Source: a virus. From it: a stretch of 64,000 bases of DNA. Numbering within the stretch: the stretch's first letter is position 1; each line of letters opens with the position of its first letter. The translations under genes were made by a program, and so were the position numbers. Positions 62,578 to 63,601 of this stretch are shown piece by piece. The stretch is from IMG/VR virus record IMGVR_UViG_3300035698_014118, positions 1-64,000 of that record; one strand, given 5' to 3'. Below the pieces are notes generated by a model. The model was given only the letters and a program-made list of their open reading frames with translations. It had not been told where the DNA came from and searched no databases.

Positions 62578-62724
62578 ATGAATGAAAATTATAAAAATCT
62601 GGTGCTTAAGACATACATGGACTTATATGCTAAAGGTGTAATTGCTATGAGTACTTTGATGGATTATGCTAACGAACTATATCCTGATGAACAGTATTTC
62701 AAATGGCAGGATATAGCAATATGA
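62578..62724 (+). CDS. Array mini-ORF A (48 aa, tail FKWQDIAI)
   Basis: Hand translation MNENYKNLVLKTYMDLYAKGVIAMSTLMDYANELYPDEQYFKWQDIAI. Confidence 0.65.
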   Translation: MNENYKNLVLKTYMDLYAKGVIAMSTLMDYANELYPDEQYFKWQDIAI

Positions 62725-62912
62725 CATATGAAGAAAAAGAACGAGTTATAGCTGCTGCTTTAGTAGAATCCAAGAAGAATAAATTTTCTTCAATGTATAG
62801 TTCTCTTGCTGATAAATTAGTTAGTGTCCAACCGATGCCTTTGCCAAAAGGTCTAATCTACTATATTTATCGTTCAAAAGATGAATTCTTTTGGCAGGAT
62901 ATGGAAATATGA
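62721..62912 (+). CDS. Array mini-ORF B (tail FFWQDMEI); gp23-like VSVQPMPLPKGLIYY
   Basis: ATGA-coupled; T4-like MCP motif. Confidence 0.7.
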   Translation: MTYEEKERVIAAALVESKKNKFSSMYSSLADKLVSVQPMPLPKGLIYYIYRSKDEFFWQDMEI

Positions 62913-63124
62913 CTTTACATAATAAAATGACTGAGGCCATGTATACTTCTATATACGATTTGTATCCAGAAGTATACGACAATAAACCTATGCCAGATAA
63001 AAAGAGATTTTTAGAATTATCACTATATATCTTAAAACATGTCAAATACGACAAAGAGCCTGTTTTCGATTTGGTACGGGATTATTGTTCAGGAAATTTT
63101 ATATGGATAAACATAAAAGACTAG
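62909..63124 (+). CDS. Array mini-ORF C (tail FIWINIKD)
   Basis: ATGA-coupled. Confidence 0.65.
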   Translation: MTLHNKMTEAMYTSIYDLYPEVYDNKPMPDKKRFLELSLYILKHVKYDKEPVFDLVRDYCSGNFIWINIKD

Positions 63125-63294
63125 ATGGTAATTGGGAAATACATATGATATCTGCTCGTCAAACAGGTAAAACTACTTTGATGGAAGATGTAATGAAATT
63201 AGCTTTTAAGAAAATGGGCGATTATCCTGTTTCCGGTTGGTATAAGAATGGCATTAAAAAGACGGATTTTGTATGGAAAACAATGAAAATATAA
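63103..63294 (+). CDS. Array mini-ORF D (tail FVWKTMKI); terminase Walker-A-like SARQTGKTT
   Basis: Starts at the ATG overlapping the Trp codon of the previous tail. Confidence 0.65.
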   Translation: MDKHKRLDGNWEIHMISARQTGKTTLMEDVMKLAFKKMGDYPVSGWYKNGIKKTDFVWKTMKI

Positions 63295-63422
63295 AGAAAC
63301 CTGAACTTTTACCATGGGGCGAAAAAGAAGATGCATTGATGCTATTAGCTAATCGGTTGCTGGTATATAAGTTTATGATAAAGTACCCTGATTGGTTTTT
63401 TTGGAGAGAAATGGTAATATGA
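63273..63422 (+). CDS. Array mini-ORF E (49 aa, tail FFWREMVI)
   Basis: Hand translation MENNENIKKPELLPWGEKEDALMLLANRLLVYKFMIKYPDWFFWREMVI. Confidence 0.65.
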   Translation: MENNENIKKPELLPWGEKEDALMLLANRLLVYKFMIKYPDWFFWREMVI

Positions 63423-63601
63423 ATAAACCATATACAAATGGTGTTAAAGCATCGGAGCTTCTGCCTGTCAAGTTCTTTTATGCTCCATATATACCGCTTC
63501 TAACTACTTCTACACTAAACATTGAAGACTTGAGAACAAGAACGAAATATGGATTGAAATTATTAAAAGAAACGTTCGTTTGGAGAGAAATGACGATATG
63601 A
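63419..63601 (+). CDS. Array mini-ORF F (tail FVWREMTI); gp23 C-terminal-like YAPYIPL...TKYG
   Basis: ATGA-coupled; T4-like MCP motif. Confidence 0.7.
   Translation: MNKPYTNGVKASELLPVKFFYAPYIPLLTTSTLNIEDLRTRTKYGLKLLKETFVWREMTI

What the first reader, a model, noticed from the sequence alone, without database searches (positions are those of the whole stretch)
62721..63601. Array cargos resemble fragments of foreign (T4-like) capsid and terminase: possible decoys or interference peptides
Seen: ORF B has LADKLVSVQPMPLPKGLIYY, ORF F has FFYAPYIPL...RTKYG, and ORF D has SARQTGKTT. Established: T4-like gp23 carries VQPM..P.G and YAPY..L...TRYG motifs, and T4 gp17 has the Walker A SRQLGKTT. This phage's own MCP and TerL (WGRRSGKD) lack these motifs, so the fragments look foreign. 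Inference: tagged fragments could poison or target co-infecting phage assembly. Alternatively they could titrate host sensors that detect terminase, portal or capsid (Avs-type, CapRel-type).
Basis: partly seen in the sequence, partly recalled or inferred. Interest (0 to 1): 0.88.

Follow-up and report, generated by a model that had tools for sequence, protein, structure and literature searches.

The report
Tagged mini-genes built from capsid-gene pieces
A fragment of a giant salt-lake phage carries a row of 31 tiny genes that all end in the same eight-residue tail; two of them are re-coded pieces of a capsid protein type this phage lineage does not use, two more are pieces of its own capsid protein, and the claimed terminase piece is not confirmed.

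Summary
Observation partly confirmed. ORF B (62721-62912) and ORF F (63419-63601) really resemble the gp23 capsid superfamily. Pfam Gp23 is the top hit of both (E 0.008 and 0.011, below cut-off) and the only family hit by two of the 31 mini-proteins. My own gp23 profile gives about 20 bits each, against at most 5.6 bits in 6000 shuffles. Both align colinearly with one huge-phage capsid protein.

The nearest relatives are divergent gp23 branches, not T4 itself. The pieces count as foreign. The phage's own capsid protein (55322-56191) belongs to another HK97 family, and five complete relatives (461-548 kb) have no Gp23 match.

B is a hybrid: its first 17 residues resemble the phage's own capsid N-terminus.

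ORF D's terminase likeness rests on the string ARQTGKTT alone. No HMM, BLAST or PDB match supports it, only a language-model lead.

Two mini-genes beyond the window (64893-65021 and 69944-70147) are diverged copies of the own capsid protein. The shared tail is conserved at the peptide level. The neighbouring radical SAM gene is not tied to the array, and relatives lack the array.

Function is untested. My preferred reading is capsid-segment baits on a common handle. Earlier notes of this scan describe similar arrays in other huge phages.

The parts
62721..62912 (+). ORF B, 63 aa. Residues 2-17 resemble the N-terminal helix of the own-type MCP. Residues 29-51 (LADKLVSVQPMPLPKGLIYYI) carry the gp23-type strand motif with gp23-type spacing. 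The tail is FFWQDMEI-stop.
   Evidence: Pfam Gp23 E 0.0082. gp23 profile 20.2 bits against <=5.6 in shuffles. 57% identity over 21 aa to the LR756511 MCP. hhalign to the own MCP clade is colinear, 2-45 against 9-61, E 8.7e-4. Own-family HMM E 0.007.
63419..63601 (+). ORF F, 60 aa. A shortened C-terminal segment of a gp23-superfamily MCP (FFYAPYIPL ... TKYGLKLLKE). Its tail TFVWREMTI lines up with the natural C-terminal strand of divergent gp23-type MCPs.
   Evidence: Pfam Gp23 E 0.011. gp23 profile 20.6 bits. tblastn finds 400 records; the listed hits fall almost all on gp23-type capsid genes. 39% identity over 49 aa to LR756511 MCP residues 434-482. MAFFT alignment runs to the C-terminus. No match to the own MCP family.
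63103..63294 (+). ORF D, 63 aa (alternative start at 63145). A strand, P-loop and helix segment, ISARQTGKTTLMEDV, plus the tail FVWKTMKI. Terminase origin is unproven.
   Evidence: AAA_14 E 0.037 only. No tblastn, PDB or terminase-HMM match. Atlas feature search puts it nearest to terminase-ATPase fragments at 0.95.
62578..62724 (+). ORF A, first tagged mini-gene of the array (tail YFKWQDIAI). No recognisable source.
62909..63124 (+). ORF C, tagged mini-gene (tail FIWINIKD). Only a weak similarity to the 1244-aa protein at 27284-31018.
   Evidence: blastp E 0.006 in a 114-protein set, not significant after 31 queries
63273..63422 (+). ORF E, tagged mini-gene (tail FFWREMVI). No recognisable source.
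63598..63810 (+). ORF G, tagged mini-gene (tail FEWKKMTT).
63789..63950 (+). ORF H, tagged mini-gene (tail FKWKDISV). The array then runs on to base 76910 of the record, 31 members in all.
55322..56191 (+). The phage's own major capsid protein, 289 aa, HK97 fold. It is the source family of two other mini-genes, at record positions 64893-65021 and 69944-70147.
   Evidence: NF042927 E 3.7e-54. Own-clade HMM against the minis: 1.9e-12 and 1.1e-5.
32658..34535 (+). Own large terminase. Walker A is WGRRSGKD, unlike ORF D.
   Evidence: phrog_2 E 5e-24. Motif at residue 112.
62531..62571 (+). 19-bp hairpin between the radical SAM gene and the first mini-gene.
61569..62549 (+). Radical SAM gene upstream of the array. 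It is a neighbour, not a demonstrated partner.
   Evidence: Pfam Radical_SAM 1.7e-21. 33 homologous loci in other phages have no tagged array.

Best explanation
ORFs B and F are real, selected mini-genes. Their variable parts descend from pieces of a gp23-superfamily capsid protein, a capsid lineage this megaphage clade does not use.

They belong to a 31-member family of 31-117 aa proteins. Every member ends in the same free C-terminal octapeptide, [F/L]-x-W-x-[D/E/N/T]-[M/I]-x-[I/V]-COOH. At least two further members are re-coded pieces of the phage's own HK97-type capsid protein.

My preferred mechanism is 'bait plus handle'. The capsid-derived segments keep the most conserved capsid motifs: the strand before the E-loop (the equivalent of the T4 Gol region), the E-loop, and the C-terminal strands. 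These act in trans as mimics of unassembled capsid protein. The common tail docks all family members onto one still unknown partner.

Because foreign-lineage pieces are kept, I think the most likely target is the head assembly of co-infecting phages, that is, dominant-negative interference.

Shown: the homology, the foreign status of the gp23-type pieces, peptide-level conservation of the tail, and the presence of the DNA in several samples.

Inferred: expression, binding, the target, and the role of the tail.
For: - Homology of B and F to gp23.
- The gp23 family is absent from five complete relatives. Apart from B and F it is absent from the 78-kb record.
- Own-type capsid pieces: 69944-70147 has 53% identity over 43 aa to MCP 247-289, HMM E 2e-12. 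64893-65021 has 60% identity over 20 aa to MCP 81-100, HMM E 1e-5.
- Against a complete 488-kb relative, the minis match nothing but the MCP. Against the record's own large ORFs, the only other hits below E 0.01 are mini-gene paralogues and one weak hit of ORF C. So the recognisable sources are all capsid.
- The tail is selected as a peptide. W is invariant and exactly 6 residues from the stop in 31 of 31. F is TTC or TTT, and M/I uses ATG, ATA, ATC and ATT. Many junctions have a separate GGAG ribosome site.
- The mini-genes are re-coded, so the copies are old and maintained: GC 32-34% against 46.7% for the MCP gene.
- In two AlphaFold models of paralogue subfamilies the tail is the least confident, unpacked part.
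- Identical pieces of the array occur in contigs of four salt-lake metagenome runs.
- Capsid segments are known to act in trans (Gol/EF-Tu/Lit, PMC3014915). Capsid proteins are common immune triggers (PMC9712102).
Against: - There is no experimental or expression evidence.
- Only 4 of 31 members have a recognisable capsid source. Capsid proteins are the easiest source to recognise, so there is a detection bias.
- The own-type pieces are as far from the own MCP as from relatives' MCPs (about 50%), which does not fit a simple anti-competitor model.
- The array is absent from four complete relatives. It is also absent from all 80 related MCP loci within 10 kb of the capsid gene. It is therefore young or dispensable.
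- No homologue of F exists among small or long proteins in 5.8 billion sequences, so no donor is identified.
- The record is only 17% complete, so a gp23-type gene elsewhere in this very genome is not excluded.
Confidence: 0.35

Rival explanations
1. Immune or host-factor decoys. The capsid-like segments occupy host proteins that recognise newly made capsid protein (CapRel-type or Lit/EF-Tu-type sensors, chaperones). The tail carries them to a common sink.
For: B covers the gp23 segment equivalent to the Gol region, described as the most conserved part of gp23 and able to bind EF-Tu and trigger Lit (PMC3014915). Capsid proteins are frequent direct triggers (PMC9712102). Own-type capsid pieces fit a decoy for sensors of the phage's own capsid.
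Against: Pieces of a foreign capsid lineage are of no obvious use for hiding the phage's own capsid. An isolated Gol-type peptide activates rather than blocks Lit. No sensor or host is known.
Confidence: 0.2
2. No bait function. The family works through its tail, for example as a capsid-targeting or docking signal on diverse small effectors, like the T4 CTS. New members arise by duplication and capture of whatever DNA is at hand, including capsid-gene scraps from the phage itself and from co-infecting phages. Homing endonucleases in the region may help.
For: 27 of 31 members have no recognisable source. There are paralogue subfamilies. The region is packed with HNH endonuclease genes, 12 tRNA genes and a split-intein gene. 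Endonuclease-driven segmental amplification of anti-defence loci beside tRNA genes is documented (PMC13096335). T-even internal proteins share only a short targeting peptide (PMC3012670).
Against: All recognisable sources are capsid proteins, from two lineages, while the MCP is about 1% of the coding capacity at hand. The retained residues are the family's signature motifs, in genes that are otherwise fully re-coded.
Confidence: 0.27
3. B and F are the two ends of one horizontally acquired gp23-type gene that decayed in place. The ORFs between them are what is left of its middle.
For: B (N-terminal motif) lies upstream of F (C-terminal motifs) on the same strand, 554 nt apart, in N-to-C order.
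Against: C, D and E show no similarity to the gp23 middle. The distance is about half that expected. Each piece is a separate ORF with its own start and the family tail. B begins with an own-type capsid N-terminus.
Confidence: 0.06
4. The array encodes precursor peptides that the adjacent radical SAM enzyme modifies, with the conserved tail as a follower or recognition peptide.
For: A radical SAM gene lies directly upstream. There are many precursors with one conserved end. The Trp is invariant.
Against: 33 homologues of the enzyme (48-59% identity) in other phages have no tagged ORFs nearby. A 19-bp hairpin separates the gene from the array. No SPASM or RRE domain was found. The 'cores' are 30-110 aa and include folded helical domains.
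Confidence: 0.03
5. For ORF D only: the terminase look is a chance or generic P-loop string, not a terminase fragment.
For: No alignment-based method supports a terminase origin. The match is 7-8 residues long.
Against: The string has the unusual RQxGKT spacing of the T4 gp17 Walker A (own knowledge). The Atlas feature search ranks only terminase ATPase families among named clusters, at 0.95.
Confidence: 0.5

Closest known systems
gp23 major capsid protein family (Pfam PF07068), divergent branch: Flavobacterium phage immuto, Microcystis phage Mel-JY01, Rhodothermus phage RM378, huge phages LR756508 and LR756511
   Same: B carries the motif LxxKxVSVQPMxLPxGLxxY. F carries YAPYIPL ... T(R/K)YG(x)KLL(K/R)E, colinear up to the C-terminus.
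   Different: They are 60-aa pieces, not capsid proteins. Their scores lie below the family cut-off. F has a 5-residue deletion. B has an own-type N-terminus. Both end in the array's tail.
Gol region of T4 gp23 (EF-Tu binding, Lit activation)
   Same: It is a short, highly conserved N-proximal gp23 segment that acts on its own in trans (PMC3014915). B holds the homologous segment, under my assumption (from memory) that Gol covers the VQPM region.
   Different: B is a separate gene in a phage that has no gp23. Nothing is known about EF-Tu or a Lit-like protease here.
Capsid targeting sequence (CTS) on the polymorphic internal proteins of T-even phages
   Same: Diverse, fast-changing small proteins share only a short conserved peptide (PMC3012670).
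   Different: The CTS is N-terminal and is removed by the head protease. Here the tag is the free C-terminus, its receptor is unknown, and some cargos are capsid pieces.
Capsid-redirecting small proteins of phage satellites that copy the C-terminal capsid-binding tail of the helper's scaffold (SaPI CpmB against the 80alpha scaffold; own knowledge)
   Same: A short shared C-terminal peptide is used to engage a capsid protein and interfere with assembly.
   Different: There is one protein per satellite, not a 31-gene array. There are no capsid-derived cargos.
Tagged mini-gene arrays with capsid fragments noted earlier by this scan in other huge phages (e1-5693726, e1-5759297, e1-5675372, e1-5675286 and others)
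   Same: The same two-part design. One of them has a tag W-x-K-E-G-F-stop, with Trp also 6 residues from the stop.
   Different: The tag sequence differs. Here two pieces come from a capsid lineage foreign to the phage. Those notes are unpublished AI notes that I did not re-test.

Membership tests
Gp23 major capsid protein (PF07068) | Profile score over the curated cut-off (24.4 bits) | tested here: not met
   B 16.0 bits, F 15.6 bits
Gp23 major capsid protein (PF07068) | Signature motifs in the right order (VQPMxxPxG near the N-terminus; YAPYxPL ... TRYG near the C-terminus) | tested here: met
   B aligns to profile positions 18-43 and F to 302-339. Alignments.
Gp23 major capsid protein (PF07068) | Full-length HK97-fold shell protein of about 450-550 aa | tested here: not met
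   B is 63 aa and F is 60 aa. No gp23-like sequence lies between them.
Large terminase ATPase (Terminase_6N, TerL_ATPase, GpA_ATPase) | Profile match to the ATPase domain | tested here: not met
   No hit at D in hmmscan or in six-frame scans with three terminase HMMs.
Large terminase ATPase (Terminase_6N, TerL_ATPase, GpA_ATPase) | Walker A string of the RQxGK(T/S) type | tested here: met
   ARQTGKTT in D. The match is motif-level only.
Large terminase ATPase (Terminase_6N, TerL_ATPase, GpA_ATPase) | Walker B, catalytic carboxylate and nuclease domain | tested here: not met
   D ends about 35 residues after the P-loop.
HK97-fold MCP, capsid_Caudo_2 (NF042927), the phage's own type | Profile match of the mini-proteins to the own-type family | tested here: met
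   69944-70147 E 8e-12, 64893-65021 E 1e-3, B E 7e-3, F none. These are fragments, not members.
Radical SAM / RiPP precursor pair | Enzyme and precursor genes co-occur across genomes | tested here: not met
   33 loci hold the enzyme and none holds a tagged array.
Radical SAM / RiPP precursor pair | SPASM or peptide-recognition (RRE) domain in the enzyme | tested here: not met
   Only Radical_SAM and Fer4_12 were found. All NCBIfam hits lie far below their cut-offs.
T4-type capsid targeting sequence on internal proteins | Short conserved peptide shared by otherwise unrelated small proteins | tested here: met
   31 of 31 end in the tail. Mean column identity of the rest is 11%.
T4-type capsid targeting sequence on internal proteins | Proteins are packaged into the head and the tag is cut by the head protease | not testable with these tools
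   No virion proteome is available. The tag is C-terminal, not N-terminal.
Gol-type trans-acting capsid peptide | Binds EF-Tu and activates a Lit-type protease | not testable with these tools
   The host is unknown. Only the sequence equivalence of the region is shown.

The most novel reading that the evidence does not exclude
Giant phages run an undescribed protein-level interference system. It consists of arrays of mini-proteins in which conserved snippets of capsid proteins, including those of rival phage lineages, are displayed on a common C-terminal handle. The handle may itself derive from the last strand of a gp23-type capsid protein. The system would sabotage competitors' head assembly or blind capsid-sensing immunity.
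Probability: 0.3. Interest if true: 0.85.

Novelty: new variant of a known kind. Interest (0 to 1): 0.62.

Why it matters
If the capsid-like pieces act as baits, this would be a new way for a virus to fight rival viruses or host sensors: short, re-coded copies of the most conserved capsid segments on a shared docking peptide. It would also give short peptides that bind capsid proteins or capsid sensors, which are easy to test in T4-like model phages. The presence of a foreign capsid lineage's motifs in a phage that does not use that capsid is the most telling point. It is hard to explain by simple gene decay. Even under the dull reading, the array shows how new small phage genes are assembled from scraps of essential genes.

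Tried and rejected
- **Tail as a ribosome-binding site or RNA element.** Rejected. Conservation follows codons, with synonymous variation, and many junctions have their own GGAG.
- **RiPP operon with the radical SAM gene.** Rejected as unlikely.
- **Array conserved in relatives.** It was not found within 10 kb of the MCP in 80 related loci. It was not found genome-wide in four complete relatives. A census of C-terminal patterns in the 488-kb relative found no tag family.
- **Donor search for F.** There are no small homologues and no long ones in the 5.8-billion-protein collection.
- **PDB sequence search.** Nothing for D or F. B gave only a chance-level SH3 hit.
- **Third gp23-like piece claimed by another note (70159-70353).** E 0.97, not significant.
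- **Other sources for the cargos.** tblastn of all minis against a complete relative found only the MCP. Pfam and PHROGs at E<=0.5 gave no portal, helicase or terminase family.
- **Complex prediction of the own MCP with ORF A.** No support. This is not evidence either way.
- **Sequencing runs.** No RNA holder is listed.
- **Atlas search for B.** Nothing above 0.80.
- **ORF C against the 1244-aa protein.** E 0.006, which is not significant after 31 queries.
- **Literature.** Four full-text searches found no description of this design.
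Full report
**Setting**

The window is the first 64 kb of a 78,189-bp IMG/VR virus record that CheckV rates 17% complete. Its capsid gene has 70-91% identical relatives on contigs of up to 548 kb. These include five 98-100% complete genomes of 461-548 kb, so the record is a piece of a megaphage. Pieces of the region studied here occur, without differences, in contigs of four salt-lake metagenome runs. It is therefore real DNA, not an assembly artefact.

The head module is recognisable:
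- large terminase, 32658-34535
- portal, 45158-47425
- a 289-aa HK97-fold major capsid protein, 55322-56191 (NF042927, E 3.7e-54)

**The array**

From 62578 to 76910, all on the + strand, lie 31 small ORFs of 31-117 aa. They all end in [F/L/I]-x-W-x-[D/E/N/T]-[M/I]-x-[I/V...]-stop. The Trp is invariant and always six residues from the stop.

The conservation follows codons. Phe is TTC or TTT, and Met/Ile uses ATG, ATA, ATC and ATT. About half of the junctions have a separate stop and a GGAG site instead of an ATGA overlap. The tail is therefore a selected peptide, not a ribosome-binding site.

Outside the tail the family is very diverse, with 11% mean column identity. It has two paralogue subfamilies. 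AlphaFold models of these subfamilies gave:
- a helical domain (pLDDT 73), with the last 8 residues below pLDDT 50
- a poor beta-plus-helix model (pLDDT 59), with the last 12 residues below pLDDT 50

This fits an exposed tail, but the evidence is weak.

The array is interrupted by 12 tRNA genes, HNH endonuclease genes, a Nudix gene and a split UDP-glucose dehydrogenase.

**The capsid claim**

ORF B and ORF F each have Pfam Gp23 as their best hit. B scores E 0.0082 against profile positions 18-43. F scores E 0.011 against positions 302-339. Both lie below the gathering score.
- Gp23 is the only Pfam family hit by two of the 31 members.
- A six-frame scan of the whole record with Gp23 rings only at these two places.
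- tblastn of F finds 400 phage records. The 30 rows listed fall almost all on genes annotated as gp23 or major head/capsid protein. The organism tally is mostly cyanophages and Aeromonas, Vibrio and Salmonella phages.
- Most of B's 12 hits are capsid genes of divergent T4-like phages and two huge uncultured phages.
- Both ORFs hit the same capsid gene of huge phage LR756511, colinearly. B has 57% identity over 21 aa at residues 94-114. F has 39% over 49 aa at residues 434-482.
- A profile of eight gp23-superfamily proteins scores F at 20.6 and B at 20.2 bits. The profile is somewhat biased, because its members were chosen from these hits. The best of 6000 shuffles of B and F reaches only 5.6 bits.

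Neither ORF matches solved T4 proteins by sequence. 'T4-like' should therefore read 'gp23 superfamily, nearest the divergent branch'.

**Foreign or own?**

The own capsid protein has no VQPM or YAPY motif. Five complete relatives have no Gp23 match at E<=1. Among 150 diverse representatives of the own capsid family, none has the motif [VI]xP[ML]xxPxG. Their equivalent strand is V-[D/E]-x-L-P-x-G, two residues shorter. F does not match the own family at all.

B is mixed. Residues 2-17 (TYEEKERVIAAALVES) match the N-terminal helix of the own capsid clade. The whole of B aligns colinearly with own-MCP residues 9-61:
- hhalign E 8.7e-4
- own-family HMM E 0.007
- only one of 6000 shuffles scores higher

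The strand motif of B, however, has gp23-type sequence and spacing. B is either a chimera or comes from an unsampled capsid lineage.

One caveat remains. The unseen 83% of this genome could still hold a gp23-type gene.

**More capsid pieces**

Two members beyond the window are diverged copies of the own capsid protein.
- 69944-70147 covers MCP 239-287, with 53% identity and HMM E 2e-12.
- 64893-65021 covers MCP 73-96, with 60% identity and HMM E 1e-5.

By the usual order of HK97-fold elements, the second is the E-loop region and the first is the C-terminal strands. This assignment is an inference.

Their GC content is 32-34%, against 46.7% for the capsid gene. They are old, re-coded copies.

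Against the complete 488-kb relative, the 31 minis match nothing but the capsid gene. Against the record's own large ORFs, the only other hits below E 0.01 are mini-gene paralogues and one weak hit of ORF C. The recognisable sources are thus all capsid proteins, from two lineages. Capsid proteins are also the easiest source to recognise.

**The terminase claim**

ORF D contains ISARQTGKTT. Its spacing matches the T4 gp17 Walker A, SRQLGKT, which I cite from my own knowledge. Beyond this string there is nothing:
- the only Pfam P-loop hit is AAA_14, E 0.037
- no tblastn hit at E<=10 and no PDB hit
- Terminase_6N and GpA_ATPase ring nowhere in the record, and TerL_ATPase rings only at the own TerL
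- no hit in five gp23-type phage genomes, which also lack any RQxGKTT string

The one point in favour is a language-model feature search. It ranks only terminase-ATPase fragment clusters among named neighbours (0.95, 178 shared features). By the tool's own figures about one shuffled protein in 100 reaches that score. I treat D as an unproven P-loop fragment.

**Neighbours and relatives**

The radical SAM gene just upstream has 33 homologues (48-59% identity) on other large-phage contigs. None has a tagged ORF array next to it. A 19-bp hairpin separates the gene from the array. A RiPP reading is therefore unlikely.

The array is absent downstream of the capsid gene in 80 related loci. It is also absent from four complete relatives. 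The 488-kb relative has no other C-terminal tag family either.

**A point on the tail**

In a MAFFT alignment F stays colinear with divergent gp23-type proteins to its very end. F's ETFVWREMTI lies under PEF-YGKVFV (immuto), PEF-YGLLYV (RM378) and AKF-YARMTI (LR756511). The family tail may thus descend from the last strand of a gp23-type capsid protein, with F as a possible founder. This is a post hoc match of a short strand-like pattern and needs testing.

**Interpretation**

The following is shown:
- The mini-gene family is real and its tail is under peptide-level selection.
- F and the second half of B descend from a capsid lineage foreign to this phage clade.
- Two other members descend from the own capsid type.

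Function is inferred. The design, a variable part plus an invariant free C-terminal peptide, resembles targeting or docking tags such as the T4 CTS on polymorphic internal proteins (PMC3012670). Capsid segments can act in trans (Gol/EF-Tu/Lit, PMC3014915). Capsid proteins are common immune triggers (PMC9712102).

Because foreign capsid motifs are kept, I favour interference with the head assembly of co-infecting phages (0.35). The alternatives are:
- a host-sensor decoy (0.2)
- a tail-driven family whose capsid scraps are captured by-products (0.27); endonuclease-driven amplification is a plausible engine for this (PMC13096335)
- an in-place relic of one gp23 gene (0.06)
- RiPP precursors (0.03)

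A structure-prediction test of the tail against the own capsid protein gave no verdict.

**Novelty**

I found no paper describing such arrays. Earlier notes of this scan report similar 'bait plus handle' arrays with capsid fragments in at least nine other huge-phage genomes. One of them has Trp six residues from the stop. The design has therefore been seen before by the scan on other DNA. The new element here is capsid motifs from a lineage the carrier phage does not use.

Noticed in passing
window 63560-63601 (tail of ORF F), compared with L117:702-2192 and L146-L148: F's tail ETFVWREMTI aligns with the natural C-terminal strand of divergent gp23-type capsid proteins (PEF-YGKVFV, AKF-YARMTI). 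The tag of the whole family may derive from a capsid C-terminus.
   Followed up: partly
record positions 62721, 64893 and 69944 (own-type pieces); 62721 and 63419 (gp23-type pieces): The capsid-derived pieces lie along the array in the same N-to-C order as in the capsid proteins, for both lineages. With so few pieces this is not significant (about 1 in 12 by chance).
   Followed up: no
window 62531-62571: A perfect 19-bp hairpin with a 3-nt loop overlaps the stop of the radical SAM gene, just before the first mini-gene. There is no T-run, so it may be a processing or regulatory site rather than a plain terminator.
   Followed up: no
window 61569-62549: An orphan radical SAM enzyme (MoaA/PqqE-like core, no SPASM found). 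It has 48-59% identical homologues on 33 large-phage contigs in unrelated gene neighbourhoods. Its function is unknown.
   Followed up: partly
window 45158-47425: The portal protein carries a C-terminal HNH-endonuclease-like domain (phrog_559, residues 600-732). This is an unusual fusion.
   Followed up: no
window 59933-60829: A 298-aa protein with a prepilin-type N-terminal signal ([20 protein letters not shown]), of the kind abundant in Planctomycetes and Verrucomicrobia. It is a possible clue to the host.
   Followed up: no
L001 467-16491 (record 61466-77490): Twelve tRNA genes (Ser, Leu x5, Pro x2, Thr x3, Ser), several HNH endonuclease genes and a UDP-glucose dehydrogenase split by intein halves are interspersed with the mini-genes. 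It looks like a hyperplastic, endonuclease-rich region.
   Followed up: no
window 55322-56191 compared with record 69944-70147: The capsid gene has 46.7% GC, while its diverged mini-copy and the rest of the array have 32-34%. The copies have been fully re-coded to the local composition.
   Followed up: partly
window 62909-63124: ORF C has a weak similarity (27% over 67 aa, E 0.006 in a small set) to residues 428-483 of the 1244-aa protein at 27284-31018. It is not significant after multiple testing.
   Followed up: partly
window 60941-61375: A PD-(D/E)XK endonuclease (PF11645, E 7e-20) and a tRNA-Ser lie just upstream of the radical SAM gene.
   Followed up: no
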